A DNA stretch of 35,772 nucleotides, taken from a phage. Position numbers and translations under genes: made by a program. This document shows, piece by piece, positions 90-31,960 of the stretch (positions within the stretch are counted from its first letter, which is position 1; the number at the start of each line of letters is the position of its first letter). The DNA lies in the NCBI GenBank assembly GCA_019566835.1, contig GCA_019566835.1_3045.2. One strand, written 5' to 3'. The notes beneath the pieces were generated by a model. It was not told the DNA's origin. It worked only from the letters and a program-made list of their open reading frames with translations, and made no database searches.

Positions 90-3000
90 ATGGCTACTTT
101 AAAACAAATACAATTTAAAAGAAGCAAAACCGCAGGCGCGCGTCCTGCTGCTTCAGTATTAGCCGAAGGTGAATTGGCTATAAACTTAAAAGATAGAACA
201 ATTTTTACTAAAGATGATTCAGGAAATATCATTGACTTGAGCATTTCCACTGGCGGCAATATCAGTGGAAATATCACTCAAACTGGTGATTATTTACAAA
301 ACGGCACGTATAATCTTAATGGAAACCAGTTTGTTTATGCAGGAAAATACATTGAATTTTTACCTAAAACCGCTGGTAATGGTGCGTGGGCAAATCAACA
401 CCTCAATAAAGCTCCTATCTTTACAGATTTAAGTTCAACTACTTCTGTTTCAGAATATCATCCACTCATTAAGCAGCGTTATAAAGATGGGACTTTTTCT
501 GTTGGTACGTTAGTAAACGAAGGAAGTTTTAAAATTCATTATATTAATGAATCGGGAACTTCAAAATATTGGACATTTCGTAGAGATGGTGGATTTGTTG
601 TTGATACAGGAAGTTTGACAGTAACAGATGGAAATATTTCTGCCTCTGGTAATATTAATTCAGCTACTGGGGTAGTTTCTGCTCCGCAGATTAATACAAA
701 GACTATAGTTTTTGATACAAAAGCGTTCGGACAATATGATTCGCAGTCATTAGTTCAATATGTTTATCCTGGAACAGGTGAAGCAAACGGAATCAATTAC
801 CTTCGCAAATTCCGTGCTAAATCTGGTGGTACAATTTATCATGAATTAGCTTCTGCGCAAACCGGAAAAAGTGATGAACTTTCTTGGTGGACTGGTAATA
901 CAGCGGTTAATAAACAAATGGGCCTTCGCAATGATGGGTCTTTAGTACTACGACGTTCACTTGCAATTGGTACAATTACAACAGATGAAAACATCAATAA
1001 CTACGGTTCCACTGGAGCAATGGGCGAATGTTATATAGTTATTGGTGATGCATCAACAGGTTTATCATACAAAAAAACTGGGGTATATGACTTAGTTGCT
1101 AGTGGTCTTTCTGTAGCATCTATTACTCCTGATAGTTTCCGTAGTACGCGCAAAGCGATTTTTGGACGCTCGGAAGACCAAGGCGGTACGTGGCTTCTTC
1201 CTGGTCAAAACTCATCTCTTCTTTCAGTTCGTACTGAAGCTGACCAAAACAATAATGGAGATGGTCAGACACATATTGGCTATAATAGTAATGGTAAATT
1301 TTATCATTATTTTAGAGGCAGAGGAAGAATGGCCATTGGAATGGCCGAAGGACTTATTGTTGAACCAGGAATTTTAGATATTAAAACTGGTTCAAATACA
1401 TTAAGTTTGCGTGCTGATGGTACCGTCGCTTCTGTTCAAACATTAAAGCTTAATAATGGATTATATTTTAATAGCGATGGAACTAACGCTTCTCTAATTT
1501 TTAAAGCAGCTTCAGGTATTGATGGTACTAAACAAATACTTTGGGAAGGTGGTACTCGTGCTGGGCAGAATAAGAGCTATGTAACTGCTAAAGCTTGGGG
1601 AAATTCATTTAATTCATCTGGCGATCGTAATCGTGAAACGGTTTTTGAAGTATCAGATGGACAAGGATATTATTTTTATGCTCAACGCGTAGCTCCTGCA
1701 CCAGGTTCAACAACTGGTGCAGTTCAATTTAGAGTTGCCGGAGCATTATTAACTTCTGGCGGTATTACATCATCTGGTTCTATTGTTACTGAATCTAGCT
1801 TAGTTGCAAATAATGGATTATCTGTAAATGGACAAGCTAAATTTGGTGGAACAGCAAATGCATTAAGAATTTGGAATGCCGAATATGGCGCCATATTCCG
1901 TCGCTCAGAAACAGCATTGCACATTATTCCTACTCTTAAAGACCAAGGAGAAAATGGTGAAATAGGTAATCTTCGTCCATTGAGCATCTCACTTAACAAC
2001 GGTATGGTTCAAATGCGCCATTCTGTCACGTTAGGTGATGATGGTGCAGGCGGTAATATGGTGACGGTTGATAATGATTCTAAAGTTATAGTAATGACGA
2101 CTAATAGCCGTATTAGTCCTAACTTCCGTATGCAAATTGGACAGTCGTCTTATATTGATGTGGAATGTACTGATGCTGTGAGACCTGCTGGAGCCGGTTC
2201 TTTTGCTTCACAGAATAACGAAAACGTTCGCGCTCCGTTCTATATGAATATTGATAGAACAGATACAAGCACTTATGTTCCTATTGTGAAACAAAGATAC
2301 GTGCAAAATAATAGTTGCTATTCTATTGGTACTTTAATTAATGGTGGTAACTTTAGAGTTCATTATCATGAAGGTGGCGATGGCGGTTCTACAGGCGCAA
2401 TTATAAAAGATTTAGGATGGGAATTTAATAAAAACGGTGATTTTTATTCTCCTGGTAAATTAGGCGCTGGAAATATTAGAATAGGTACTGATGGTAATAT
2501 CACGGGTGGTTCTGGTAACTTTGCTAACTTGAATACAACTTTAAACCGTAAAGTTAATTCTGGTTTTATTACTTATGGAGCAACGGCAGGTTGGTACAAG
2601 TTTGCAACAGTAACAATGCCTCAAGCTACATCAACTGTTTCAATTACAGTCACCGGTGGAAATGGATTTAATTCTGGGTCATTTAATCAGTGTGCAATTT
2701 CTGAAATTGTTCTTCGTACAGGAAACAATACTCCTAAAGGATTAAATGCTGTTCTATATAGAAGAGGACTAAATTCATTTAGAGATATTGCTTGGGTTAA
2801 TACATCTGGTGATACATATGACATTTATGTTAATATGGGAACATATGCTAATCAGTTGATATTTAACTATAGTTCTGTTGATAACGCCACAGTTCAAATT
2901 ATTGGCGCATTCAGCTCAGCTCAAAATCCTGTTGATGCATTGCCAGAAACATATGTTAAAGGTCAGGTAGCAGATGTATTGACTAACTTAGTTGATTCTG

Positions 3001-3953
3001 GAAAAACGAAGCGTTTTGTTGCTGAATCTGAAATAGCTGTTAATAATCAAACTGGATTACGTATTACGAGTAACGGTGATAAATCTGGTTCAAATTCAGT
3101 ATTATTCAGAAATGATGGCGGTAGTTTTTATATTCTTTTAACAGATAAAAACGCAGCAGATGGAAATACGACTGCTACAGAAGGAGATTGGAATGGTAAA
3201 CGTCCTTTCCAAATTAATATGACTTCTGGTGAAGTAACATTTGGAAATAATATTAATATTTCTGGAAACGGAAGCATTAATTGGACAAAAGCCGGAGCAA
3301 ACCCTAGAAATATGAGAATATTTCATGCAGGTGATGCTTCTCGTGGTAACCGTATTGAAATCGCAGATGATACTAACTATATTGCTTACTTTGAAAAAAC
3401 TCCAGGTGGAGCTAACCGCTTTGTAGTAAATAATGCTACTGTAGCTGGTGTTAATCAAATGAATTCATTTGGTATTAACATCAATAACGCGCTTGGTGGA
3501 AATAGTATAACATTTGGTGATAGCGATACTGGTATTAAGCAAAATGGCGATGGATTATTAGACATATATGCGAACAACGTACAAGTATTCCGTTTCCAAA
3601 ACGGTGATTTGTACTCATACAAAAATATAAATGCTCCAAACGTTTATATTCGTTCTGATATTCGTTTAAAATCCAACTTCAAACCTATCGAAAATGCGCT
3701 TGATAAAGTTGAAAAACTTAACGGTGTCATTTACGATAAAGCTGAATATATCGGTGGAGAGGCAATTGAAACTGAAGCGGGTATTGTGGCTCAAACGTTA
3801 CAAGACGTTTTACCAGAAGCTGTCCGTGAAACAGAAGACAGTAAGGGTAATAAAATACTCACTGTTTCTTCTCAAGCCCAGATTGCTCTTCTGGTTGAAG
3901 CTGTGAAAACACTTTCTGCTCGTGTAAAAGAACTTGAATCTAAACTTATGTAA
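90..3953 (+). CDS. 37: Long tail fibre distal subunit gp37, T2-type with C-terminal intramolecular chaperone module
   Basis: 1287-aa ORF. N-terminus MATLKQIQFKRSK...LAEGELAINLKDRTIFTKDDSGNIIDL and internal blocks NAEYGAIFRRSE, AECTDAVRPAGAGSFASQNNE and KQRYVQ match the gp37 signature I recall from T4. Last ~99 aa (SDIRLKSNF...GVIYD...) resemble a self-cleaving fibre chaperone domain. Confidence 0.93.
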   Translation: MATLKQIQFKRSKTAGARPAASVLAEGELAINLKDRTIFTKDDSGNIIDLSISTGGNISGNITQTGDYLQNGTYNLNGNQFVYAGKYIEFLPKTAGNGAWANQHLNKAPIFTDLSSTTSVSEYHPLIKQRYKDGTFSVGTLVNEGSFKIHYINESGTSKYWTFRRDGGFVVDTGSLTVTDGNISASGNINSATGVVSAPQINTKTIVFDTKAFGQYDSQSLVQYVYPGTGEANGINYLRKFRAKSGGTIYHELASAQTGKSDELSWWTGNTAVNKQMGLRNDGSLVLRRSLAIGTITTDENINNYGSTGAMGECYIVIGDASTGLSYKKTGVYDLVASGLSVASITPDSFRSTRKAIFGRSEDQGGTWLLPGQNSSLLSVRTEADQNNNGDGQTHIGYNSNGKFYHYFRGRGRMAIGMAEGLIVEPGILDIKTGSNTLSLRADGTVASVQTLKLNNGLYFNSDGTNASLIFKAASGIDGTKQILWEGGTRAGQNKSYVTAKAWGNSFNSSGDRNRETVFEVSDGQGYYFYAQRVAPAPGSTTGAVQFRVAGALLTSGGITSSGSIVTESSLVANNGLSVNGQAKFGGTANALRIWNAEYGAIFRRSETALHIIPTLKDQGENGEIGNLRPLSISLNNGMVQMRHSVTLGDDGAGGNMVTVDNDSKVIVMTTNSRISPNFRMQIGQSSYIDVECTDAVRPAGAGSFASQNNENVRAPFYMNIDRTDTSTYVPIVKQRYVQNNSCYSIGTLINGGNFRVHYHEGGDGGSTGAIIKDLGWEFNKNGDFYSPGKLGAGNIRIGTDGNITGGSGNFANLNTTLNRKVNSGFITYGATAGWYKFATVTMPQATSTVSITVTGGNGFNSGSFNQCAISEIVLRTGNNTPKGLNAVLYRRGLNSFRDIAWVNTSGDTYDIYVNMGTYANQLIFNYSSVDNATVQIIGAFSSAQNPVDALPETYVKGQVADVLTNLVDSGKTKRFVAESEIAVNNQTGLRITSNGDKSGSNSVLFRNDGGSFYILLTDKNAADGNTTATEGDWNGKRPFQINMTSGEVTFGNNINISGNGSINWTKAGANPRNMRIFHAGDASRGNRIEIADDTNYIAYFEKTPGGANRFVVNNATVAGVNQMNSFGININNALGGNSITFGDSDTGIKQNGDGLLDIYANNVQVFRFQNGDLYSYKNINAPNVYIRSDIRLKSNFKPIENALDKVEKLNGVIYDKAEYIGGEAIETEAGIVAQTLQDVLPEAVRETEDSKGNKILTVSSQAQIALLVEAVKTLSARVKELESKLM

Positions 3954-16202: not shown

Positions 16203-16232
16203 ATTATACCACATCCTTGTGGTAAAGTAAAC
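16203..16232 (-). promoter_or_regulatory. T4-type early promoter for the rIIA.1-rIIA-rIIB unit
   Basis: Minus strand reads GTTTAC, 18 nt, GTGG-TATAAT; the -35 element overlaps the gene 39 stop codon. Confidence 0.65.
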
Positions 16233-18049
16233 TACTGGCTCATCCATTCTTTACGAAGGTCAGCATTATCTCCCATGAGCATTTCAAAAAGCTCTTTCCA
16301 GTTCTCAGGAAGTTTAACAACATCATATACTGGATTTTGAATCATTTCACGATATTCAGATTTTTCCAAAGAGCCAAGTCCTTTAATATAACGGATGCTA
16401 TGTTTAGGTAGAGCATCTTTGGCACTCTCATATTCAGCGACTGTATAAAACCATTCTTGTTTTTTACCGACCTGAGCGATGATTACAGGAGTTTTGACAA
16501 AGCGAATTCGTCCTTGCTCAAACAATTCTGGCCAATTACTAAAAAATCCGAGCAGAGAAGGATAAATGCTTCCTAGACCATCATGGTCAGCATCAGTCAT
16601 AATAGCAATATTGCGATAATTCATGTTTTCAGCTTTTTCACCAAGAACTAATCCAGTGATTGCGCAAATATCAAATAGTTCTTTGTTTTTAAGCATATCT
16701 GCATAAGACATACCCCAACTGTTGAGAACTTTACCACGCAATGGATAACCACCATGAAGTTCTTTATCACGAACATCAATAAGATATCCGATAGCAGAAT
16801 CACCCTCAGTCAAGAAAAGAGTAGTATCAGCATCTTTACCGCACAGATTAGCTTTAATATGTTTATGAACCTTTGCCTTAGAAGCCTTTTTAGCTGCTTT
16901 AGTTTCAGCTGCTTTTTCTGCTGCCAATTTACGAGCTAGTGCAGCTTCAATAATTGGCATTAAAATTGCTTCATTATTTAAAATAGCGCGTGAAATCTTT
17001 TTAGCGTCAAGTTGAATATGACTACGGATTTCACCAAATGGAGAAGTCAAACGCTCTTTAGTTTGAGAATCAAATCGCATGTTTTTCATATCACGAACAA
17101 ACATAACGATAGTCAAACATTCTTTAACGCGTGCTTTAGTTACATCAATTTTGAACTTACGTTTGATTTGTGGAATAAGGTCTTCACAAATATCATCCAT
17201 AACACAGTCAATGTGATGGCCACCATTCTTAGTATGAATGTTATTGACGTATGTTAATTGACGAAATCCATCCGGTGAACGACCAACCGCAATAGAACAA
17301 TTTTCTTGTTCTTGAACAATAGCATGTTCATCATACTGTAGTGCATATTTCTTAAAATTGCCCTGAACCTTTTTACCATTAAAGGTAAATTGAATATCAG
17401 GATAAACAACAGCAAGTGTCTGGAGACGATCTAGTGTAATGTCAAGATAAACTTGGGACAGCTCATTAGTTTCAAATGACATAAAATCTGGAATGAAAGT
17501 AACACGAGTTCCTTTCCATTTTCCAGGAATAGTTTCCCAGGATTTATTTTCCATGCCATTTGAACAACGAACTACAATATTATTTTGACCATCGCCAGTT
17601 TCACCGACAAACATCACAGAAAAAATGTTAGTTAAACTAGAACCAACACCATTCATACCACCGGTGACACGTTCTTTATCATCACCAAAGTTACCACCCG
17701 CTTTTGGAATAGTCCAAGCAGCAACTGGACCAGGAATTTCTTCACCGGTAGGTGTTTTAACCATCGCTTGTGGAATACCACGACCGTTATCTTCAACTGT
17801 TACTTGATTGTTTTTAATAGTAACATTAATTTTATTTGCGAATTTAAACTTAGTACGAATACCTTCATCTACTGAGTTATCGATAATTTCATCAATAAGC
17901 TTAACAAGACCAGGTACATACTGAACACTTTCCCATTTACCAAACAGAAAGCGCTCATGCATTTCATTAGCAGAAGAGCCAATGTACATGCCACTACGCT
18001 TTTTGATATGTTCAATATCGCTCAGAATTTTAATTTCATTCTTAATCAT
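16232..18049 (-). CDS. 39: DNA topoisomerase II large subunit (GyrB-like) gp39, uninterrupted
   Basis: 605 aa from the ATG at 18049 (SD GAGGATAAG; the ORF-track start at 18052 is GTG). N-terminal GHKL ATPase motifs (DEIIDNSVDEG, EDNGRGIP) and a C-terminal Toprim-like region sit in one frame. Confidence 0.92.
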   Translation of the reverse strand: MIKNEIKILSDIEHIKKRSGMYIGSSANEMHERFLFGKWESVQYVPGLVKLIDEIIDNSVDEGIRTKFKFANKINVTIKNNQVTVEDNGRGIPQAMVKTPTGEEIPGPVAAWTIPKAGGNFGDDKERVTGGMNGVGSSLTNIFSVMFVGETGDGQNNIVVRCSNGMENKSWETIPGKWKGTRVTFIPDFMSFETNELSQVYLDITLDRLQTLAVVYPDIQFTFNGKKVQGNFKKYALQYDEHAIVQEQENCSIAVGRSPDGFRQLTYVNNIHTKNGGHHIDCVMDDICEDLIPQIKRKFKIDVTKARVKECLTIVMFVRDMKNMRFDSQTKERLTSPFGEIRSHIQLDAKKISRAILNNEAILMPIIEAALARKLAAEKAAETKAAKKASKAKVHKHIKANLCGKDADTTLFLTEGDSAIGYLIDVRDKELHGGYPLRGKVLNSWGMSYADMLKNKELFDICAITGLVLGEKAENMNYRNIAIMTDADHDGLGSIYPSLLGFFSNWPELFEQGRIRFVKTPVIIAQVGKKQEWFYTVAEYESAKDALPKHSIRYIKGLGSLEKSEYREMIQNPVYDVVKLPENWKELFEMLMGDNADLRKEWMSQ

Positions 18050-18076
18050 CACTTATCCTCGTTTGGTTTCGGGAAT

Positions 18077-23375: not shown

Positions 23376-24695
23376 TCACACATAAAACACATCATAACGA
23401 CCGCGGGTGACACCAACATAAAGAAGTTGTTGAGCTAGTTCAGCATCTGCATAATGAATACAAGGCGTATAAATGAAAGCACGGTCTACAGACATACCCT
23501 GAGCTTTATGGAATGTTGATGCAGGAAGTGCTTTCACTTTACTGAACTGTGATTTAGCATCCCAAAAATCACTCCATGGAGCTTTTCCGCCTTTGTTCCA
23601 ATTTTTATAAGTTTCTGCCGTTTTACCTAAAAACAGGTTAAACTTATATAGCTCTTCATCAGATGAAATTATTTTAATCTTTTCACGATAATATTCATCA
23701 TCGCCGTAAGTTTCTACTGTTAAATCCCAATGACGAATTAAGTATTCTCCAGGAACACCACGAGCTTTAACAAACGTCGATGTATACTCTGCTTCTATAA
23801 TACGAACTAATTGCCCATTATTAAAAATAATTTCTGATACAGGCTTTCCATCAATTTTATATGTTTTAATTAATGGTTCCTGCATTACAATAATTTCACC
23901 GACAATAAAATCTTTATCAGTTTCAAAAATCTTTTTACGAATAATGCTATTTAACTTATCAACAGATTTATTCGTAAATGCCATCACACGATTTTCAAAC
24001 AAATCATCTAATGATTTAACAATTGAAAAATAATTTACCATAAAATCGCGTAAAGCGGTATCACCAGTAAATCCACGTACTCCATGCCCGTCAACAACTT
24101 TATCATAAATCCACTTACCGTTACGAACGTCAGTAGCTACATCAATAATAGGAGCATTACTGCGTTTAACTTCAGTGAGTTCACACTGATAAAAATCTTT
24201 ATGTGTAAAGAATGGACTGATATAAGCAGTATTTTCTCCTGGGTCAACAGGTCTAATTTGCTTATTATCCCCTATTCCAATTATAGTACACCACGGCGGG
24301 ATAGTTGAAAGCAGAATTTTAAATAGCTTTCTATCATACATTGACACTTCATCGCAGATTAATACCCTGCATTTAGCTAAATCTGGTACTTCTTTTTGTT
24401 CAAAAAGAACGTTTTCTTCATATGTTACCGGGTTAATTTTAAGAATACTGTGAATAGTACTCGCTTCTTTCCCCGACAGTTTTGAAAGAATCTTTTTAGC
24501 TGCATGAGTAGGAGCTGCTAAAATAATACCAGTTTCACCCGTAGATATTAAAGCTTCAATGATGAACTTAGTAAGAGTAGTCTTACCAGTACCAGCAGGT
24601 CCATTAATAGTTACATGATGTTTCTTTTCTTTAATAGCCCTCATAACAATGTTAAAGGCATTTTTCTGGCCTTCGGTCAAATCATCAAATGTCAT
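23376..24695 (-). CDS. dda: Dda DNA helicase (SF1B)
   Basis: 439-aa ORF with Walker A GPAGTGKT and DE box LICDEVSM; T4 Dda length and position. Confidence 0.93.
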   Translation of the reverse strand: MTFDDLTEGQKNAFNIVMRAIKEKKHHVTINGPAGTGKTTLTKFIIEALISTGETGIILAAPTHAAKKILSKLSGKEASTIHSILKINPVTYEENVLFEQKEVPDLAKCRVLICDEVSMYDRKLFKILLSTIPPWCTIIGIGDNKQIRPVDPGENTAYISPFFTHKDFYQCELTEVKRSNAPIIDVATDVRNGKWIYDKVVDGHGVRGFTGDTALRDFMVNYFSIVKSLDDLFENRVMAFTNKSVDKLNSIIRKKIFETDKDFIVGEIIVMQEPLIKTYKIDGKPVSEIIFNNGQLVRIIEAEYTSTFVKARGVPGEYLIRHWDLTVETYGDDEYYREKIKIISSDEELYKFNLFLGKTAETYKNWNKGGKAPWSDFWDAKSQFSKVKALPASTFHKAQGMSVDRAFIYTPCIHYADAELAQQLLYVGVTRGRYDVFYV

Positions 24696-25003
24696 CGTAA
24701 ATTCCCTGCAATTGGTATACTAACAATACGCCCAGTATCTAAAATTCGCTGATATAATCTTTGTGTGTCTACATCAGGCTTAACATGTTTAACTTCTATT
24801 TTATTAAACCAAAATTTACGTGGAGTCTCAACTAATCTTGGAATTCCCATACCTAAAGCTAGTTTATATTGGTCTTTGAGAGTAGTAAAAACTCTATCAG
24901 CAATCTCTCTTTCAAAAAACACAGCAGGACGATGTTCATCAAGTGGAACTGGCGCCGTAAATCCGTCTTTGTCTCGGTAAACTATCGCATATACATAAAC
25001 CAT
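24692..25003 (-). CDS. Hypothetical protein (dda.1 position)
   Basis: 103-aa ORF with a 4-nt overlap onto dda. Confidence 0.65.
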   Translation of the reverse strand: MVYVYAIVYRDKDGFTAPVPLDEHRPAVFFEREIADRVFTTLKDQYKLALGMGIPRLVETPRKFWFNKIEVKHVKPDVDTQRLYQRILDTGRIVSIPIAGNLR

Positions 25004-25004
25004 A

Positions 25005-25760
25005 TTATCCTCGGATAAGTTTAAAAATTGAACAATTTAGCGGGTATCCTCTTTTCAGTTTAAGTTTATCAATAAAAGACAAGTTTTGATACCGCTCTAC
25101 ACCTTGAATAATTTTATCACACATATCATATTGCATTTCTGCTTCTGACAACTTTTTCACAATTTTCCAATCCGAGCCTTTAAGAAGAACGTTCAGTTTA
25201 ACAACTTCAGCGCCTTCTGCTATGCGAGAACCATCAATACGAGCTTTAAGTGCTATAATCCTTAGCTTAATGTCAGAGGTCTGTTTTGATTTAGAAAGCT
25301 GAGAAATGTGTTCAATTCGGTTTTCACGTTTTTTCTGTATAGCTTTAATTTGATTATAAGTCTTTTTGATTTTAGCCCATTTCTTTTCATCTAAATTTAG
25401 TTTATGAACTTTTTTCGCAGATGAACGACCAATTCGCAAAGCAAATAAATCCCGTTTTTCAATCAACTCTTCTAAAGTATAATCAGAACGAAATGTATTA
25501 TACTTTTTCTTTACTGCAATAACATTCCCTTTAATGTATCCAATGTTATTATCAAAACGTTCTAATGATAATTTCTCTCCTTCAATACGATTATCAAAAG
25601 GTTCTCCCGAGTAAGCGCAAACTTTTTGGTCTAAAATGTTCTTAATGTAATTGAAGTCTAAGTTAAAATCTTTAGAACGTCTTTTTGCAGATGCCTGAGT
25701 GTGCTCTAAACGACGTTTAATTTTACGAATTTGATTATTAGACATATTATGCAGTTTCAT
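25005..25760 (-). CDS. srd: Srd-like protein (similarity to rpoD)
   Basis: 251-aa basic ORF between dda.1 and modA, where T4 carries srd; assignment is by position and size. Confidence 0.55.
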   Translation of the reverse strand: MKLHNMSNNQIRKIKRRLEHTQASAKRRSKDFNLDFNYIKNILDQKVCAYSGEPFDNRIEGEKLSLERFDNNIGYIKGNVIAVKKKYNTFRSDYTLEELIEKRDLFALRIGRSSAKKVHKLNLDEKKWAKIKKTYNQIKAIQKKRENRIEHISQLSKSKQTSDIKLRIIALKARIDGSRIAEGAEVVKLNVLLKGSDWKIVKKLSEAEMQYDMCDKIIQGVERYQNLSFIDKLKLKRGYPLNCSIFKLIRG

Positions 25761-25795
25761 ATTTTTCTCACATCTTACGGACGATTGACTACTAT

Positions 25796-25825
25796 ACTAT
25801 AACATTTTTACCTTGGCTTGTAAAC
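25796..25825 (-). promoter_or_regulatory. T4-type early promoter upstream of srd
   Basis: Minus strand reads GTTTAC, 18 nt, TATAGT. Confidence 0.55.
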
Positions 25826-25837
25826 AATTTTATGAAA

Positions 25838-25864
25838 AATGCTTCAAAAATTTCATGGTATAAT
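25838..25864 (+). promoter_or_regulatory. Consensus MotA-dependent middle promoter on the plus strand, antisense to modA
   Basis: Plus strand reads AATGCTTCA (MotA box), 12 nt, TGG-TATAAT (extended -10), pointing into the 3' end of modA. Confidence 0.4.
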
Positions 25865-25881
25865 GAATCTAAGTCCTTCCA

Positions 25882-26484
25882 TTATAGATTAAATCCTTCA
25901 AAATCAAGAGTATAGATAGTGTATGTTGAATACTTTTTATACTCATATCTATCTGCAATTCTAAATACACTTCCAGCTGGTATCATTACTTCCTGTTCAT
26001 CTGAAACTAATTCCATATTACGATAGCGATGGCTATCTGGAAATTTAAAACTCGGACTATATTCTTTACAACGTAGAGCTTTTATAGCATACTCCTGGAA
26101 ATTGAATACCATAGGAGCTTTGAATTCAAAAATAACTTGTGTGTTATACTCTAAACCGGAAGCAAAATGTAGAGCTATATTTTTATCATATGAAGCTGAT
26201 ACGACTTTATCAAATGTAATAATATCAATTCCTTGATTTAACACCTGCTTAGTCTCAGCTGGAACACCTCTCCAAAGAGGTTTATCGTTTGGAACCAAAC
26301 GAGATTTGATTATTTCATTTAACCAAGTATGGTCATCTGGTTTGTTGGTAATACAATGAATTAAAAGTTCAATTTCAGATAAATTAAACCCTTCAGAAAG
26401 TAATTCTTCACGAATAGAAGCACGCACCGATGCATCCATTGATTTTATTTTAAAATCTTTTAGTTGCATTACTGAGTATTTCAT
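25882..26484 (-). CDS. modA: ADP-ribosyltransferase ModA
   Basis: 200-aa ORF with an ADP-ribosyltransferase layout (LWRG, SAS, EQEVMIP catalytic block), in tandem with a 207-aa paralog. The modA versus modB label follows my recalled T4 lengths. Confidence 0.65.
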   Translation of the reverse strand: MKYSVMQLKDFKIKSMDASVRASIREELLSEGFNLSEIELLIHCITNKPDDHTWLNEIIKSRLVPNDKPLWRGVPAETKQVLNQGIDIITFDKVVSASYDKNIALHFASGLEYNTQVIFEFKAPMVFNFQEYAIKALRCKEYSPSFKFPDSHRYRNMELVSDEQEVMIPAGSVFRIADRYEYKKYSTYTIYTLDFEGFNL

Positions 26485-27104
26485 TCAACTACCTCAATAT
26501 CATAAACTTTAAATGTTCCAAATGAATCGTGTAATTTTTCTTTTGAAATAGAAGTTATTCTATACTTTCCAATTGGAATCATCCATTCTTGTTCATGCAC
26601 AATCATCATTAAGTTATCAGTACGCTCTGAATCTAGCCCATCAGTATCTTCATACGTGTACTTAAACTCAGTATTAGGAGAAGAAAGTATAATATCGCTG
26701 ATATGGTCAGAGTAATTAAAAGCTTTATCAGTTTTTAAACGAAGTATTGTTTCAGTGAAATATTCAGCATAAGAAAAAGAACACGCTGTATGCAAACTAG
26801 TAGTAAATGAATCTACCCTGTTCGTTGAAAACACTTCTCCAACTTGTAAATCTTTAATAAGTTCTTTTGTCGATTTTGATATACCACGATATAACTGATA
26901 AGGCGATTTAGTTAAATGCTTTTTAATGATTTTATTCAACTGTCTGTGAAGAGCTTCATTCTTTTTGGCTTCCATACATTGCCAAAGAACAGACTGCTCA
27001 AAGTCAGTAAATTTTTCACAGACTTTTTTATACATATCATATTGAAAATCAACGCTTTCAGCTTTTATAGATAACTGTTCAACATCTGCAGGATTAATAA
27101 TCAT
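26481..27104 (-). CDS. modB: ADP-ribosyltransferase ModB
   Basis: 207-aa ORF with LYRG, STN and EQEWMIP motifs; paralog of the adjacent gene. Confidence 0.65.
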   Translation of the reverse strand: MIINPADVEQLSIKAESVDFQYDMYKKVCEKFTDFEQSVLWQCMEAKKNEALHRQLNKIIKKHLTKSPYQLYRGISKSTKELIKDLQVGEVFSTNRVDSFTTSLHTACSFSYAEYFTETILRLKTDKAFNYSDHISDIILSSPNTEFKYTYEDTDGLDSERTDNLMMIVHEQEWMIPIGKYRITSISKEKLHDSFGTFKVYDIEVVE

Positions 27105-27130
27105 GATAGCCTCCGTATACTTCAGAAGCT

Positions 27131-27160
27131 ATCATATCATCGTTAGAAAGGAAAGTAAAC
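27131..27160 (-). promoter_or_regulatory. T4-type early promoter upstream of modB
   Basis: Minus strand reads GTTTAC, 18 nt, TATGAT, then SD GGAGG. Confidence 0.55.
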
Positions 27161-27171
27161 AACTTTTTGAA

Positions 27172-27354
27172 TTATTTTGCCCAGGGAGCCCAAGGCGGAG
27201 GGTCAAGATGGTATGAAGCTAGTTCTTCTAGAAGAGCATCTGGGGCTTCAATTCCATAATTCTGTAATACTATACGGTACTCTTTCTTATAATCACTAGA
27301 ATCATTCTGGTTATTCGTAGAATGATTATCTTCTAACATCTCAAATAAATCCAT
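27172..27354 (-). CDS. Hypothetical protein (60 aa)
   Basis: Acidic ORF ending PPPWAPWAK. Confidence 0.5.
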   Translation of the reverse strand: MDLFEMLEDNHSTNNQNDSSDYKKEYRIVLQNYGIEAPDALLEELASYHLDPPPWAPWAK

Positions 27355-27362
27355 ATTAATTC

Positions 27363-27833
27363 CTAGCGATAAAAACCAAAGTGACGATTAGCTTCAATGA
27401 TCTTTCTTTCTTCTTCGGACATTCTCCAGCGTAGTCCAACATCAAAATGAGCCCAGACCATCCTAACAAATGCATTTATATCTTTAATATCTTCAATAAT
27501 GAATGTTTTACTTTTAGAAGGTTGACTCGCTAATTTAACTTTATCGTCTTCAAACATGTCAAAAAGACCATATTCATGAGCTCTTTTATAGCCTTTAATA
27601 GTTAAAGCTTCAGAAGAAGAAAATGGTGAATCTGTATTCTGCAAAATATCTTCAGTATGCTTTATAATTAGAATAACATTTTCTGGATATTTTCTTTCTT
27701 TTATATCTTTAATTAAAATATCCGGATTTTCTGCTAAAGGAATAATTAACGAGCATTTTTTATCAAGTGTATTTACTGATTTACCTTCTTTAGACATAAA
27801 TTCTATTGAATATAATTTTGCTACTTCAATCAT
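27363..27833 (-). CDS. Hypothetical protein (156 aa)
   Basis: ORF tiled with neighbouring genes. Confidence 0.65.
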   Translation of the reverse strand: MIEVAKLYSIEFMSKEGKSVNTLDKKCSLIIPLAENPDILIKDIKERKYPENVILIIKHTEDILQNTDSPFSSSEALTIKGYKRAHEYGLFDMFEDDKVKLASQPSKSKTFIIEDIKDINAFVRMVWAHFDVGLRWRMSEEERKIIEANRHFGFYR

Positions 27834-27834
27834 G

Positions 27835-27990
27835 TTATTTCCTTTTGCCTACTAATGGACCGTCAGGAATTTTGTTTTCCTGAATGTATTTCTCATTTTC
27901 TTCCATCATTTTACTACCGATTTTAAGAAGCAAATCCATTGCTTCATTTGCTTTAGCCTTTGCCTCTTCTAACGTCATATCTTTGGTCAT
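27835..27990 (-). CDS. Small hypothetical protein (51 aa)
   Basis: [51 protein letters not shown]; ATGA overlap with the upstream stop. Confidence 0.4.
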
Positions 27991-28190
27991 GATTTATCAC
28001 CATAGATGTCTCTCATCAATTTAAGCGCTGAGCGTTCTAATTTCTTTTCTTTCTCAGCACTAATCATTGATTTCATCCATTCTTCTGACTCGTTCTGCAT
28101 TTCTTTATTTGCCTGTTCAACCCAACCATCATCAATATACATTGAGTTTGGTCTATTGAACCATTCAAGCATTTTCTTCAGAACTTTCAT
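27987..28190 (-). CDS. Hypothetical protein (67 aa)
   Basis: ORF with a weak SD; overlaps the upstream gene by 26 nt. Confidence 0.45.
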
Positions 28191-28650
28191 TTGTTTTACC
28201 TAAAACGATAGTATGGACAGCGTCAAATTCATGAATTTTTAGCAAATTAGGATTTAAATTATTCCATAAAGAGGTAATAAAATATGATAGCGCACTTTCG
28301 TCCGTAATTATAAATTTATTTCCTTTATCTATTTTCCAATCATATATTGAATCGTATGAATAGAAGGATAACGGTTTATTATTATAGTATGCTTCAGCAA
28401 CATCAATATAGTTAGATTTAGTAAATGCTTGAATTGCCATAAATGGAGAATTTTGTACAGTTTCAATAATTCCGATCTTTTTAAGTTTTATTTCAACATC
28501 TTCTGGAACTGGCATTGAAATAAAATCTTCTACTAGATACATGTCATTGTCATATCTTTTATCAATCATTACTGCTACTGTAATTGGAACATCCTTGACA
28601 AACGCCATACTAATACTATTGATAGACATTTCAAACAAAATCGCTTCCAT
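28165..28650 (-). CDS. Hypothetical protein (161 aa)
   Basis: Start taken at [10 protein letters not shown] with SD GAGGAAAATT. Confidence 0.65.
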
Positions 28651-28658
28651 AATTTTCC

Positions 28659-29000
28659 TCAATCACAAGATGTAGATGAACAACTAGAATCACAAGAACT
28701 TCCACATGAATCGCCCGTCCATACATGAACAGGAACATTGGTGTCATATGAATCAGAACTAGACTGTGTATTCTGTGCATTAGATGATGTAGTAGGTACT
28801 GACCAGCGCCAAGGATTTTTATAATATTCTTGGGCTTCTTCATAAGTCATAGTAACTGCTTCTACTGTTCCATCTCCCATATAAACATACTCAACTACAG
28901 TTAAAGGAAGGTAGTCATTTGAAATAGGAACTACACCTTCTCCCGGAGTTGTAGAGAAAAAATCTGTAAAGAAATTTTTAAACCAATTAAATATAAACAT
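28659..29000 (-). CDS. Hypothetical protein with cysteine/serine-rich C-terminal tail (113 aa)
   Basis: N-terminal aromatic hydrophobic segment [15 protein letters not shown]; C-terminus [18 protein letters not shown]. Confidence 0.6.
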
Positions 29001-29206
29001 TACAAAAAGCCTCTTTTGAATTCGACTTGCTTATCGCCATAATCATATCGAATCTCTGCATTAAATTCGACAGAACCATCTGCGTACATCATAAATGAAT
29101 GCACAACAACTTCTGTGGACCATGGCTGCAGTTCATATTTCTTCATTACATGCCGTGAAATGATAATATCTAAATCTTCATTTGGTTTAATCCAACGATT
29201 TAACAT
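29000..29206 (-). CDS. Hypothetical protein (68 aa)
   Basis: SD GAGGAG, directly downstream of an early promoter. Confidence 0.6.
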   Translation of the reverse strand: MLNRWIKPNEDLDIIISRHVMKKYELQPWSTEVVVHSFMMYADGSVEFNAEIRYDYGDKQVEFKRGFL

Positions 29207-29232
29207 AGTGCTCTCCTCTATAAGATAGTTCT

Positions 29233-29262
29233 ATTATACCACACTCATTTTGATATGTAAAC
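29233..29262 (-). promoter_or_regulatory. T4-type early promoter
   Basis: Minus strand reads GTTTAC, 18 nt, GTGG-TATAAT. Confidence 0.6.
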
Positions 29263-29264
29263 TG

Positions 29265-29298
29265 CAAAAACGAAAAAAGGAACCCCGAAGGATTCCTT
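29265..29298 (-). terminator. Rho-independent terminator downstream of soc
   Basis: Minus strand reads AAGGAAUCC-UUCG-GGGUUCCUU (9-bp stem, UUCG loop) followed by UUUUUUCGUUUUU. Confidence 0.7.
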
Positions 29299-29303
29299 AA
29301 ATT

Positions 29304-29561
29304 TTAACCACCAATACCTGGAGTTGGCGTAACAGTCCAAAGACCTTCATTAGCAGTGATCCATTCAGTACGCTGATTTTCTTCATATACTGTAGAATAT
29401 GCTGCTTTTTCAGAAGGGAATGTCTGATAATGAGCACCAGAAATTTTGTGAACATCAGAATAAAGAGGGAAAGCTACAGAAATTTCTTTACCCTGAATTG
29501 TACCACCATCAACTGCTTGGTCAAATGTTTTAATATTAACATAACCGCGAGTACTAGCCAT
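29304..29561 (-). CDS. soc: Small outer capsid protein Soc
   Basis: 85-aa ORF, MASTRGYVNIKTF...GKEISVAFPLYSDVHKISGAHYQTFPSEKAAYSTVYEENQRTEWI...; matches T4 Soc as I recall it, with a slightly longer C-terminus. Confidence 0.92.
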   Translation of the reverse strand: MASTRGYVNIKTFDQAVDGGTIQGKEISVAFPLYSDVHKISGAHYQTFPSEKAAYSTVYEENQRTEWITANEGLWTVTPTPGIGG

Positions 29562-29577
29562 GTAATTCTCCTTTTAT

Positions 29578-29787
29578 TTAAATTACATGATTATTTATAA
29601 TAAATTCTCGCGGAACGTTAAAATATCCGATTTTAGTTAATATAACAACATCACCGTTAATAATTACCGGAGAATAATCTTCTGGAGTGTTAAATTTCCA
29701 ATGGGATCTAATATTATATCCATCAGAACCAAATGCTCGAGTAGCCGGTCTCCCGGCTTTTTGCCACGCGTAGAAATCAAATTTCAT
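29578..29787 (-). CDS. Hypothetical protein (69 aa; soc.1-type ORF)
   Basis: Small ORF between soc and gene 56. Confidence 0.55.
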   Translation of the reverse strand: MKFDFYAWQKAGRPATRAFGSDGYNIRSHWKFNTPEDYSPVIINGDVVILTKIGYFNVPREFIINNHVI

Positions 29788-29978
29788 TTTGAATGCTCTA
29801 TAATTAATTTTAAAGCTTCTTCACTGACAAAAATTTCGTCAGGACCTTCTATAACTTCAACCATACGAAGTTGATTAGTTAAGAGCTCACATACGAGCTC
29901 CTTGTTATAATCTTTAAATAGCTGGTCAATACGTTTCTTATGGGCTTTCTTAAGCTGACGCTTATTTAAACGAGCCAT
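29784..29978 (-). CDS. Hypothetical protein (64 aa; soc.2-type ORF)
   Basis: Small basic ORF overlapping both neighbours by 1-4 nt. Confidence 0.55.
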   Translation of the reverse strand: MARLNKRQLKKAHKKRIDQLFKDYNKELVCELLTNQLRMVEVIEGPDEIFVSEEALKLIIEHSK

Positions 29979-30496
29979 TAATAACCTCGGTCTTGACGAG
30001 CGAAGTTTTCAGCATTTTTCAGGTAATAAAGTTTAAAGATTTCTTCAGCCGACATTCCAAGAGCAATAAATTTATTCATGAAAAAGTGAAATTGGTCAAT
30101 CAGTTCAAATTTAATTTCAAGCTGATCTTCAGGAGATAAGTCTTGAATTTTCTTGGATTGCATTTCAGAATAACGTTTCTTCCAAGGTTTCCATACAGCA
30201 GAAGCTTCTTTTTCACCATTACTCATACCACCAAGAGAAGTATATAGCTCGCGAGTTTCGTCTGCGATATAATCGTCTTGGTTTCGCAGCCAAGCAAGAA
30301 CTTCTCCTGCAGTTTCAAGTGAATCAGGATGACGATTTGTTTCTGGTTTATCATTAGCCAAACGAATCTGTAAATGCCGCTGCATGTCAAGCATAACCTG
30401 CAATGGGTCAATACTGTGCATAATATACTCAGCATATGCACGATTTGCTTTATCAACACCTTCGATCAAATGAGCACATTCATTAAAGTGAGCCAT
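29978..30496 (-). CDS. 56: dCTP pyrophosphatase gp56 (MazG-like)
   Basis: Start taken at MAHFNECAHL with SD AAAGGAAAAATA, giving 172 aa; the ORF-track N-terminal extension is hydrophobic and lacks an SD. Confidence 0.8.
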   Translation of the reverse strand: MAHFNECAHLIEGVDKANRAYAEYIMHSIDPLQVMLDMQRHLQIRLANDKPETNRHPDSLETAGEVLAWLRNQDDYIADETRELYTSLGGMSNGEKEASAVWKPWKKRYSEMQSKKIQDLSPEDQLEIKFELIDQFHFFMNKFIALGMSAEEIFKLYYLKNAENFARQDRGY

Positions 30497-30530
30497 TATT
30501 TTTCCTTTCAATTCATGGGTTAGTAGATTA

Positions 30531-30556
30531 ATTATACAATAAATATATAAAGCAAT
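30531..30556 (-). promoter_or_regulatory. MotA-dependent middle promoter for gene 56
   Basis: Minus strand reads ATTGCTTTA (perfect MotA box), 11 nt, TATAAT, about 30 nt upstream of the gene 56 start. Confidence 0.55.
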
Positions 30557-30567
30557 AAGGAGGACAT

Positions 30568-30768
30568 ATGGTACAAAAATTAATGGCACTTGTTAATGCC
30601 ATAAAAGGTAATAAAAAACGTATAGCTTTTACTATTTCTGCTATGGTAGGAATTTTACTCTGGAACTTTATTTTATCACCAATTGCAATTGCGCATGGTG
30701 TTAATATTCCAGTAGTTACTCTTGATACATTTGTAGATTTAGCATTTGCTTTAGTTGGGTTGATTTAA
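30568..30768 (+). CDS. Plus-strand small membrane protein (66 aa) in the 56-61 gap
   Basis: Consensus SD AAGGAGG 4 nt before the ATG; hydrophobic product; fills the gap exactly, with its stop overlapping the gene 61 stop. Confidence 0.5.
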   Translation: MVQKLMALVNAIKGNKKRIAFTISAMVGILLWNFILSPIAIAHGVNIPVVTLDTFVDLAFALVGLI

Positions 30769-31793
30769 ATCTTAGCATATTTAGATAGCCGCATTTTAGC
30801 CATCAACCCCTGGGCAATATTATTTTTCATATATTCCATAATTTGTTCAGGGGTTGCACCTTCCTTTCTAATCATATCATTAACATCTTTAGATTTCCAG
30901 GGAGATTTATCCCAAAACATAATCCTTTCTCCTGCATCAACTAATTTAGTCATTCGTTTGATAGTGTCAGGGTGACGAGGTTCATTATCTAAAACCCACA
31001 CTCGTCTATCTTTAAATGGAACAACTTCTAGGTCTAATTGACCACCCGTAATAGCTATACCATTTTCAATAAAAAGTGAATCTATAGGTCCTTCTAGAAC
31101 ATATACATCACCATCTTTAACTCGTTCAACACCGTAAATTTTTGTTGCCTCAGGATAAGCTTTAATGGTGATATATTTTTGAGGAGCATCTTTCTTTAAT
31201 GCACGTCCTTGAAAAGACTCAGCTTTTCCATTAGCATTATAAATTGGAATAACAAGACGAGGCTCAGAAATTTCCTTTTTGTATGTTCCCGGTGCTATAC
31301 TATTAACTAATTTAGGCCATTCGGTTGTAAACCAAAGATATTTCCATTTATCCTTTGGAATACAACGAGCTTTTACATATTTTATAATTGGATGGTCTTC
31401 CGCCAGTTTATCTAATCTAACACATGACGGAAGAGATTTAATTATTTTCTTCTCAGGTTGCTTAGGAAGTTCTTTAGGTTTTTCTACTGGACGACTTTTA
31501 CCTTTTTCTTTTCTTATTTCAAAGATATACTCACGATATAAATCAGGTTCAAACTCCTTTAAATATATTCCGATTGGTGCATGATAATTACAGTTATAAC
31601 AATGAATATTTCCTTCATTATTATCACCATAATACCATCCACGAGCTTTATTCTGGTCGGTTTTTGAATCTCCACAAACTGGACATCTAAACCGCAATTT
31701 AAAAGTTGAACTATTATTTACTTGTGTGAATTTAGGTAAATGAGCTAATGCACGGTATGCAAACTCATTATCAATCCAAGGTATTGATGACAT
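30765..31793 (-). CDS. 61: DNA primase gp61
   Basis: 342-aa ORF with N-terminal zinc ribbon (CPVCGDSK...CYNCNYHAP) and a Toprim-like core; T4 gene 61 length. Confidence 0.93.
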   Translation of the reverse strand: MSSIPWIDNEFAYRALAHLPKFTQVNNSSTFKLRFRCPVCGDSKTDQNKARGWYYGDNNEGNIHCYNCNYHAPIGIYLKEFEPDLYREYIFEIRKEKGKSRPVEKPKELPKQPEKKIIKSLPSCVRLDKLAEDHPIIKYVKARCIPKDKWKYLWFTTEWPKLVNSIAPGTYKKEISEPRLVIPIYNANGKAESFQGRALKKDAPQKYITIKAYPEATKIYGVERVKDGDVYVLEGPIDSLFIENGIAITGGQLDLEVVPFKDRRVWVLDNEPRHPDTIKRMTKLVDAGERIMFWDKSPWKSKDVNDMIRKEGATPEQIMEYMKNNIAQGLMAKMRLSKYAKI

Positions 31794-31795
31794 TT

Positions 31796-31960
31796 TTACT
31801 CTTCTTTTTCTTTAGATTCCTCTTTTTTCTTTTTAGGAATCTGCTCAGGACCTTTATTTACTACAGCGCCTGACGTTGTTCCAGTAGAGATATTTTCAGG
31901 ATTACCACCTGAATCTCCAGCGACCATATCTTCTTTAATAAATTCTTTATATGTTTTCAT
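31796..31960 (-). CDS. Small hypothetical protein (54 aa; 61.1 position)
   Basis: MKTYKEFIKEDMVAGDSGGNPENISTGTTSGAVVNKGPEQIPKKKKEESKEKEE; stop 2 nt before the gene 61 ATG. Confidence 0.45.
   Translation of the reverse strand: MKTYKEFIKEDMVAGDSGGNPENISTGTTSGAVVNKGPEQIPKKKKEESKEKEE

What the first reader, a model, noticed from the sequence alone, without database searches (positions are those of the whole stretch)
29578..29978. Two small ORFs, not a homing endonuclease, between soc and gene 56
The soc-56 interval holds two small ORFs (69 and 64 aa). In T4 this interval carries the homing endonuclease gene segF, whereas T2 has two short ORFs. This is therefore the endonuclease-free allele and a potential homing target.
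Basis: established knowledge. Interest (0 to 1): 0.4.

Follow-up and report, generated by a model that had tools for sequence, protein, structure and literature searches.

The report
T2-type soc.1/soc.2 genes, no segF
The stretch between the capsid gene soc and the dCTPase gene 56 of this T4-like phage holds the two small conserved genes soc.1 and soc.2, as in phage T2, where T4 has the homing endonuclease gene segF; this is a common, already described arrangement.

Summary
The two minus-strand ORFs are at exactly the stated coordinates: 29578-29787 (69 aa) and 29784-29978 (64 aa). They lie between soc (29304-29561) and gene 56 (29978-30496).

The interval aligns without gaps to phage T2 at 96.3% identity; T2 annotates the same two ORFs. 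In T4, homology stops at 29599, the edge of the soc late promoter. segF has no counterpart anywhere in the window.

- **Real genes.** Both ORFs are conserved in this position across several genera. dN/dS is 0.10-0.21 for soc.1 (Pfam DUF7422) and 0.08-0.52 for soc.2.
- **Where the target is.** The literature places the SegF target in gene 56, not in the interval. The window's gene 56 is T2-type: 97.3% identical to T2 and 71.5% to T4, with a 245-nt block identical to T2. Sensitivity to SegF is therefore likely but inferred.
- **Other alleles.** This is not the only endonuclease-free allele. Others carry soc.2 only, soc.1 only, a deletion, or an unrelated HNH-type endonuclease gene.

The allele was described by Belle et al. 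(2002) and occurs in about 200 deposited phage genomes. The functions of soc.1 and soc.2 remain unknown. Interest is low.

The parts
29277..29298 (-). Intrinsic terminator downstream of soc. Inferred to end both the soc late transcript and the 56-soc.2-soc.1-soc read-through transcript.
   Evidence: 9-bp stem AAGGAATCC/GGGTTCCTT with a 4-nt loop, followed by TTTTCGTTTT. KAW1E185 annotates a terminator at the homologous place.
29304..29561 (-). soc, the small outer capsid protein gene (85 aa).
   Evidence: Pfam PF16855 Soc, E 2.7e-45. Lies within a block 95.8% identical to T4, window 23376-29599.
29592..29599 (-). T4-type late promoter box TATAAATA for soc, inside the last codons of soc.1. It marks the left edge of the segment that differs between T2-type and T4-type phages.
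   Evidence: Read from the sequence. Homology to T4 ends at 29599. That TATAAATA is the T4 late promoter consensus is established knowledge, not tested here.
29578..29787 (-). soc.1, a 69-aa protein of the DUF7422 family; function unknown.
   Evidence: ORF. (PF24197, E 6e-46, residues 1-69 of 69). P0013, UniProt Q94MW2, is named 'ORF soc.1' of T2; invariant motif DxYAWQKAGRPA...HWKFN; dN/dS 0.10-0.21; confident model, pLDDT 88.9; no match to a known fold.
29784..29978 (-). soc.2, a 64-aa protein with a strongly basic N-terminal helix; function unknown.
   Evidence: ORF. (phrog_5782, E 2.5e-39); 83 homologues, one of them named Soc.2; conserved N and C termini with a variable middle; helices 6-38 and 53-63, at low confidence; dN/dS 0.08-0.52.
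29883..29900 (.). An 18-nt segment bounded by two GAGCTC palindromes inside soc.2. It occurs in opposite orientation in other phages (ELVCEL versus ELTYEL in the protein).
   Evidence: and alignment A3.
29978..30496 (-). Gene 56 (dCTPase/dUTPase, 172 aa), T2-type allele. The literature places the SegF target in this gene.
   Evidence: 97.3% nucleotide identity to T2 gene 56, 71.5% to T4 and 73.0% to RB51; phrog_173. SegF target is gene 56. The longer GTG-started ORF reaching 30589 is a mechanical extension.
30141..30385 (-). A 245-nt block of gene 56 (gene positions 112-356) that is 100% identical to T2.
   Evidence: all 14 differences from T2 lie outside this block.
30531..30555 (-). Putative MotA-dependent middle promoter of gene 56: TTGCTTTA box at 30548-30555 and TATAAT at 30531-30536. 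It marks the right edge of the variable segment.
   Evidence: Read. T4 and T2 have ATTGCTTA...TATAAT at the same place. Homology to T2 ends at 30556 and the 97% homology to T4 resumes at 30557. The promoter assignment is an inference from the consensus.

Best explanation
The window comes from a Tequatrovirus. Its soc-56 interval carries the T2-type allele: the small genes soc.2 (next to gene 56) and soc.1 (next to soc), with no homing endonuclease gene. They lie downstream of gene 56 on the same strand. By inference, they are co-transcribed with it from its middle promoter and translated by coupling, since the stop and start codons overlap. The soc late promoter sits inside the 3' end of soc.1.

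Together with a T2-type gene 56, the two genes form an island of about 940 bp (29600-30536) that has no homologue in T4 or is only 74% identical to it. The DNA on either side is 96-97% identical to T4.

Inferred mechanism, by analogy with T4 x T2 crosses. In a mixed infection with a segF-carrying phage, SegF would cut this T2-type gene 56. Repair of the break from the T4 chromosome would then replace gene 56, soc.2 and soc.1 with T4 gene 56 plus segF. This is intronless homing, also described as localized marker exclusion.

Shown here: the anatomy, the homology, the absence of segF and the T2-type gene 56. Inferred: transcription, cleavage and conversion. What the soc.1 and soc.2 proteins do is unknown. 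They are conserved, selected accessory proteins, and nothing supports a capsid role.
For: - ORFs and packing.
- Gap-free 96.3% alignment to the T2 interval, with identical ORF structure.
- T4 homology breaks at 29599 and 30015, and gene 56 is only 74% identical.
- segF is annotated in T4 between soc and 56.
- No SegF-like, HNH-endonuclease-like or Dam-like coding sequence in any frame of the window.
- Gene 56 is 97.3% identical to T2 and 71.5% to T4, with a 245-nt block identical to T2.
- The T4-type gene 56 (53 records at 80% identity or more) and segF (50 records at 80% or more) are almost equally frequent in the phage collection, consistent with linked inheritance although record-level co-occurrence was not checked.
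- Literature: segF insertion site soc/56, target gene 56, exclusion of T2 gene 56, and soc.1/soc.2 in T2.
- Coding status.
- No terminator between gene 56 and soc.1, and a terminator after soc.
Against: - The exact SegF recognition and cleavage sequence could not be obtained, because Belle et al. 2002 is not in the library. Presence of the site is therefore inferred from near-identity to T2, not shown.
- The window differs from T2 at 14 of 519 positions in gene 56.
- Unlike T2 and T4, the window lacks dam upstream of gene 56. The homologous flank on that side is either a short patch at the 5' end of gene 56 or lies beyond a 900-bp T4-specific insertion. This could lower or alter conversion.
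- Transcription and translational coupling are inferred from sequence only.
Confidence: 0.9

Rival explanations
1. The two ORFs are decayed remnants of a former homing endonuclease gene, that is, a degenerating element rather than separate genes.
For: Free-standing endonuclease genes do decay in T-even phages; T4 mobA is annotated as defective. This interval hosts endonuclease genes in other phages.
Against: - Neither protein shows similarity to SegF or to the HNH-type endonucleases of PYps11T (tblastn E of 3 or more anywhere in the window).
- Their family matches are to their own families only.
- dN/dS is well below 1.
- Full-length conservation extends across genera.
- soc.1 folds confidently as a compact domain.
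Confidence: 0.02
2. The allele is endonuclease-free but is not a SegF target, either because its gene 56 has diverged at the recognition site or because the missing dam flank prevents productive conversion.
For: There are 14 nucleotide differences from T2 in gene 56, including 3 amino-acid changes near the 5' end. dam is absent, so the flanking homology to T4 differs from the T2 case. The site itself could not be checked.
Against: Gene 56 positions 112-356 are 100% identical to T2. GIY-YIG homing endonucleases generally tolerate single substitutions in their sites (established knowledge, not tested). The DNA about 20 nt upstream of gene 56 plus its first 50 nt is nearly identical to T4, and 97% homology resumes at 30557.
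Confidence: 0.12
3. soc.1 and soc.2 are capsid or virion proteins, as many database records name them ('small outer capsid protein', 'head protein', 'virion structural protein').
For: PHROG annotations phrog_5773 'head protein' and phrog_5782 'virion structural protein'. Several GenBank and RefSeq records use the same names.
Against: - No detectable similarity to Soc.
- The Pfam Soc model hits only soc.
- The genes lie upstream of the soc late promoter, in the gene 56 transcription unit, which has a middle-type promoter. That placement would suit pre-late rather than late structural genes.
- The names most plausibly spread from the gene labels soc.1 and soc.2, which only denote map position. 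No proteomic evidence was found in the library.
Confidence: 0.05

Closest known systems
Phage T2 soc-56 interval (ORFs soc.1 and soc.2; Belle, Landthaler & Shub 2002; LC348380 T2_028/T2_029)
   Same: Same position, strand, ORF number and ORF lengths (210 and 195 nt). The interval is 96.3% identical without gaps, the adjacent gene 56 allele is the same (97.3%), and the soc late promoter sits in the same place inside soc.1.
   Different: 16 substitutions in the 429-nt interval and 14 in gene 56. T2 has dam upstream of gene 56 and the window does not. The original T2 deposit lists soc.1 as a 40-aa frameshifted ORF.
Phage T4 soc-segF-56 locus (GIY-YIG free-standing homing endonuclease SegF, formerly gene 69)
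   Same: Same flanking genes and the same soc late promoter. Sequence is identical up to window 29599. In both, the interval gene follows gene 56 with overlapping stop and start.
   Different: T4 has one 224-aa endonuclease gene in place of soc.2 and soc.1, with no sequence similarity to them. T4 gene 56 is only 71.5% identical. T4 also has dam, a split gene 39/60 and mobA, all absent from the window.
RB51-type 'empty' soc-56 interval
   Same: Endonuclease-free. Identical to the window through 29613, and homology resumes at 29978.
   Different: About 364 bp (29614-29977) is missing and replaced by 16 nt. It is therefore a deletion derivative that keeps the last 36 nt of soc.1. It is linked to a third gene 56 type, 73% identical to the window.
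Other alleles of the interval: RB14 (soc.2 only), wV7 and PSD2001 (short or long soc.2 relatives), Klebsiella phage VPA32 (soc.1 only), Yersinia phage PYps11T (HNH-type endonuclease gene)
   Same: Same flanking genes. soc.2 or soc.1 homologues are retained in most of them.
   Different: Their content differs. PYps11T has a 278-aa phrog_655 homing endonuclease gene in the interval, unrelated to SegF, and a second one upstream of gene 56.

Membership tests
T2-type (soc.1/soc.2) allele of the soc-56 interval | Two small same-strand ORFs between soc and gene 56 | tested here: met
   29578..29787 and 29784..29978, minus strand. Flanks identified.
T2-type (soc.1/soc.2) allele of the soc-56 interval | Colinear nucleotide homology with the T2 interval | tested here: met
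   100% coverage, no gaps, 96.3% identity to LC348380 14218-14646. links the 69-aa ORF to UniProt 'ORF soc.1' of T2.
T2-type (soc.1/soc.2) allele of the soc-56 interval | Absence of segF | tested here: met
   (no T4 homology at 29600-30014). (tblastn with SegF against the whole window, best E = 5).
T2-type (soc.1/soc.2) allele of the soc-56 interval | Linked T2-type gene 56 | tested here: met
   97.3% to T2, 71.5% to T4.
Recipient (target) allele for SegF intronless homing | Contains the SegF recognition and cleavage sequence in gene 56 | not testable with these tools
   The site coordinates are in Belle et al. 2002, which is not held. Indirect evidence: a 245-nt block identical to T2.
Recipient (target) allele for SegF intronless homing | Homologous flanks to a segF donor on both sides of the heterology | tested here: met
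   95.8% identity over 23376-29599 and 97.3% over 30557-31830. The right flank, however, lies beyond T4's dam. A short near-identical patch exists at the 5' end of gene 56.
Recipient (target) allele for SegF intronless homing | segF-dependent exclusion in mixed infection | not testable with these tools
   Needs a genetic cross.
GIY-YIG / SegF homing endonucleases | Sequence similarity to SegF or another seg or mob endonuclease | tested here: not met
   no such match for either ORF or for any frame of the window.
Pfam DUF7422 (PF24197) | Full-length match above the gathering score | tested here: met
   154.9 bits against a cut-off of 27, residues 1-69 on profile positions 1-69 (soc.1 only).
Soc (small outer capsid protein, PF16855) | Similarity of soc.1 or soc.2 to Soc | tested here: not met
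   no match. Database names of this kind for soc.1 and soc.2 are unsupported.

The most novel reading that the evidence does not exclude
soc.1 and soc.2 are not filler but the ancestral, functional occupants of the interval. They could be pre-late accessory proteins, for example a nucleic-acid-binding soc.2 and a host- or defence-directed soc.1. If so, segF and the HNH-type endonuclease genes spread by deleting useful genes, and the allele polymorphism at this locus reflects a balance between homing drive and the benefit of soc.1 and soc.2.

Support is only indirect:
- conservation of the two genes in this position across four genera;
- dN/dS below 1;
- the RB51 'empty' site being a deletion derivative of this allele;
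- the basic helix of soc.2.
Probability: 0.15. Interest if true: 0.45.

Novelty: already known. Interest (0 to 1): 0.1.

Why it matters
It matters little beyond correct annotation. The locus is the textbook example of intronless homing, and this window carries the well-known recipient-type allele, present in roughly 200 deposited phage genomes.

Some modest practical points follow.
- The widespread labels 'small outer capsid', 'head' or 'virion structural protein' for soc.1 and soc.2 look like name carry-over and should not be trusted.
- The target of SegF is gene 56, so the allele type of gene 56 predicts susceptibility, not the interval content.
- The interval has at least six allelic states, including a second, unrelated endonuclease family. 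That makes it a convenient natural system for studying competition between homing elements and resident small genes.

Tried and rejected
- **Belle et al. 2002.** I tried to read it by DOI and by PMC id to get the SegF cleavage site. It is not held, nor is Sandegren 2005. The reviews that are held give the target gene but not the site.
- **Function of soc.2.** The model has low confidence (pTM 0.34), so no fold search was run. PDB profile hits are only chance matches to helical designs. The weak NCBIfam hit to Cas2 (E 0.019, below its cut-off) is treated as noise.
- **Compensated frameshift in soc.2.** I tested whether the PP01-type middle of soc.2 is a compensated frameshift of the window type. 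It is not; it is a non-homologous replacement of about 55 nt.
- **Decayed endonuclease.** Rejected.
- **A poor first reference.** The first T4 record returned (MZ375356, a mutant clone with a truncated segF and other truncated genes) was unsuitable, so I used NC_000866 instead.

Full report
**Observation**

Mechanical ORF listing gives two minus-strand ORFs at exactly the reported coordinates: 29578..29787 (69 aa) and 29784..29978 (64 aa). On the low-coordinate side is an 85-aa ORF, 29304..29561, that matches Pfam Soc (E 2.7e-45). On the other side is a 172-aa ORF, 29978..30496, that matches the gp56-type nucleoside triphosphate pyrophosphohydrolase family phrog_173 (E 2.7e-44). Next comes primase gene 61 (30765..31793).

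Read directly from the sequence, the gene 56 stop overlaps the start of the 64-aa ORF (TAATG). The stop of the 64-aa ORF overlaps the start of the 69-aa ORF (ATGA). A GAGG lies 6 nt upstream of the first of these starts. No terminator-like site lies on the coding (minus) strand between gene 56 and soc; a good one follows soc at 29277-29298.

- Window 29562-29990 matches phage T2 (LC348380 14218-14646) over its full length at 96.3% identity, and the three-way alignment has no gaps. T2 annotates two hypothetical proteins of the same sizes in the same places (T2_028 and T2_029).
- A database protein named 'ORF soc.1' of T2 (UniProt Q94MW2) matches the 69-aa ORF, and a protein named Soc.2 matches the 64-aa ORF. 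So soc.1 is 29578-29787 and soc.2 is 29784-29978.
- Against T4 (NC_000866), a block of 95.8% identity runs from 23376 to 29599 and stops there. Nothing in 29600-30014 aligns. Gene 56 aligns at only 74%. Identity of 97.3% resumes at 30557.
- T4 annotates segF (675 bp) between soc and 56.
- tblastn with SegF, with two HNH-type endonucleases found at this locus in another phage, and with T4 Dam finds nothing in any frame of the 35.8-kb window; every E-value is 3 or more.

The literature held in the library agrees: segF insertion site soc/56, target gene 56; SegF is responsible for exclusion of T2 gene 56 in T4 x T2 crosses; T2 has soc.1 and soc.2 in place of segF.

**Are the ORFs genes?**

Yes.
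- soc.1 matches Pfam DUF7422 over its whole length (E 6e-46). Homologues at 55-93% identity share an invariant motif, DxYAWQKAGRPA...HWKFN.
- soc.2 has 83 homologues, with a nearly invariant basic N-terminus (MARLNKRQLKKAxKKRIDQLFK) and a conserved C-terminus.
- Both sit in the same interval in Tequatrovirus (T2, KAW1E185, PP01) and Mosigvirus (PNJ-6). soc.1 alone is present in a Karamvirus, and soc.2 relatives are present in RB14, wV7 and a Gaprivervirus.
- Nei-Gojobori dN/dS against these relatives is 0.10-0.21 for soc.1 and 0.08-0.52 for soc.2. The nearly identical KAW1E185 pair is left out because it has too few substitutions.

**Where the homing target is**

The reviews state that free-standing endonucleases cut hundreds of base pairs away from their own gene, and that the SegF target is gene 56. 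The relevant question is therefore which gene 56 allele the window has.

Gene 56 falls into at least three nucleotide types that differ by about 25-28%. The window groups with T2, KAW1E185 and RB14 (97% identity). It is 71.5% identical to T4 and 73.0% to RB51. Only 14 of 519 positions differ from T2, and gene positions 112-356 (window 30141-30385) are identical.

In the phage collection, 53 records carry a T4-type gene 56 (80% identity or more) and 50 carry segF at 80% or more. Near-equal frequency is what linked inheritance would give, but I did not check that they are the same records. I could not obtain the mapped cleavage site because Belle et al. 2002 is not held. Susceptibility is thus a strong inference, not a demonstration.

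**Anatomy of the variable segment**

The left breakpoint against T4 (29599/29600) lies immediately upstream of the late-promoter box TATAAATA (minus strand, 29592-29599). That box sits inside the last codons of soc.1 and drives soc. The right breakpoint against both T2 and T4 (30556/30557) lies immediately upstream of a MotA-box-like TTGCTTTA (30548-30555), followed by TATAAT (30531-30536) in front of gene 56. The unit 'middle promoter - 56 - soc.2 - soc.1' thus behaves as a module bounded by promoter elements. The promoter assignments are inferred from consensus sequences.

**The interval is polymorphic**

Sampling the hits shows at least six states.
1. soc.1 plus soc.2. 205 records cover at least 80% of the interval.
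2. soc.2 or a soc.2 relative alone (RB14, wV7, PSD2001).
3. soc.1 alone (Klebsiella phage VPA32).
4. A nearly empty interval (RB51). It is 100% identical to the window through 29613, has 16 unrelated nucleotides, and resumes at 29978. It is therefore a deletion derivative that keeps the last 36 nt of soc.1.
5. segF (T4, RB55, RB59 and others; 61 records at 60% protein identity or more).
6. A 278-aa phrog_655 HNH-type homing endonuclease gene unrelated to SegF (Yersinia phage PYps11T). That phage has a second such gene on the other side of gene 56.

The wide distribution of soc.1 and soc.2, together with the deletion scar in RB51, suggests that soc.1/soc.2 is the older state and that endonuclease genes replaced it. 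This is an inference.

**Function of the two proteins**

Function is unknown.
- soc.2 is predicted, at low confidence, as a long basic helix, a variable linker and a short C-terminal helix.
- Sequence-profile searches of the PDB and NCBIfam gave nothing credible.
- The frequent database names 'small outer capsid protein', 'head protein' and 'virion structural protein' are not supported. Neither protein resembles Soc, and both genes lie upstream of the soc late promoter in the gene 56 transcription unit. The names most likely derive from the positional labels soc.1 and soc.2.

**Likely mechanism**

Shown: the anatomy, the homology, the absence of any endonuclease gene and the T2-type gene 56.

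Inferred: gene 56, soc.2 and soc.1 are co-transcribed before late times and translationally coupled. In a mixed infection with a segF-carrying phage, SegF cuts this gene 56. The break is resected into the flanking homology and repaired from the donor, which replaces gene 56, soc.2 and soc.1 with T4 gene 56 plus segF.

One difference from the T2 case is that the window has no dam gene. The upstream homology is therefore either the short near-identical patch at the 5' end and leader of gene 56 or the DNA beyond T4's dam, in which case dam would be brought in as well.

**Verdict**

The finding is correct and ordinary. It is a known allele, first described in T2 in 2002 and common among sequenced T-even-like phages. 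The window is 97.4% identical over 24.8 kb to its best match, phage JLBYU31.

Noticed in passing
window 29883-29900 (inside soc.2): An 18-nt segment GAGCTC-GTATGT-GAGCTC (minus strand) is present as its exact reverse complement (GAGCTC-ACATAC-GAGCTC) in RB14 and PP01. This gives ELVCEL or ELTYEL in the protein. Both forms are common among homologues, which indicates an in-frame inversion polymorphism between two palindromic hexamers.
   Followed up: partly
window about 29810-29870 (middle of soc.2): The central ~55 nt of soc.2 is a non-homologous replaceable segment: 'MVDWVVEEGPDEIFVS' type versus 'KAYTIKTGHIQLGKVH' type. Some phages have 9-nt VDW tandem expansions. The window has a 6-nt shorter version (VE--VIEGPDE). 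It is not a frameshift.
   Followed up: partly
window 30537-30556 and 30568-30768 (+): There is no dam methyltransferase gene between gene 56 and gene 61, although T2 and T4 both have one. About 900 bp of T4 is represented by about 20 bp here. Next to the gap, a plus-strand 66-aa hydrophobic ORF (phrog_2024; RB32ORF030w / RB69ORF029w family) is conserved in RB14, RB51, wV7 and KAW1E185. Its DNA is 97% identical to an unannotated stretch of T4.
   Followed up: partly
window 16232-18052, junction 16568-16631: Topoisomerase gene 39 is a single unsplit 606-aa ORF. T4 positions 2794-3910 (the gene 60 bypass region, 60.1, mobA and the start of 39) are replaced by 64 bp. A second T4 endonuclease-associated insertion is therefore also absent from this phage.
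   Followed up: partly
L006 (RB51) 1501-1568, compared with window 29562-29990: The 'empty' soc-56 interval of RB51 is a deletion of window 29614-29977. It retains the last 36 nt of soc.1 and has a 16-nt filler that faintly resembles the start of soc.2.
   Followed up: yes
L013 (Yersinia phage PYps11T) 456-1292 and 1770-2453: Gene 56 of this Tequatrovirus is flanked on both sides by phrog_655 HNH-type homing endonuclease genes unrelated to SegF. One occupies the soc-56 interval and overlaps gene 56 by 11 bp, the same overlap as T4 segF.
   Followed up: partly
protein P0013 (UniProt Q94MW2), compared with window 29578-29787: The originally deposited T2 'ORF soc.1' is 40 aa. It matches the 69-aa ORF for 23 residues and then continues in another frame. 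Either the strain sequenced had a frameshift or this is a sequencing error. The later T2 genome LC348380 has the full 69-aa ORF.
   Followed up: partly
window 29978-30496, compared with L004, L006: Gene 56 exists in at least three nucleotide types about 25-28% apart (T2, T4 and RB51 types), inside otherwise 95-97% identical genomes. The first 50 nt are shared between the T4 and T2 types, while positions 51-90 of T4 resemble the RB51 type, so the gene is a mosaic.
   Followed up: partly
window 30583-30602 (-): A stem-loop followed by a T-run lies directly upstream of the putative middle promoter of gene 56. The arrangement is reminiscent of the promoter/stem-loop (PeSL) motifs proposed to mediate module shuffling in T4-like phages. 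It overlaps the start of the plus-strand 66-aa ORF.
   Followed up: no
window 29304-29561: Soc is 85 aa here and ends in ...LWTVTPTPGIGG. The soc ORF is 258 nt here and in T2, KAW1E185 and RB51, against 243 nt in T4 and 237 nt in RB14 and wV7.
   Followed up: no
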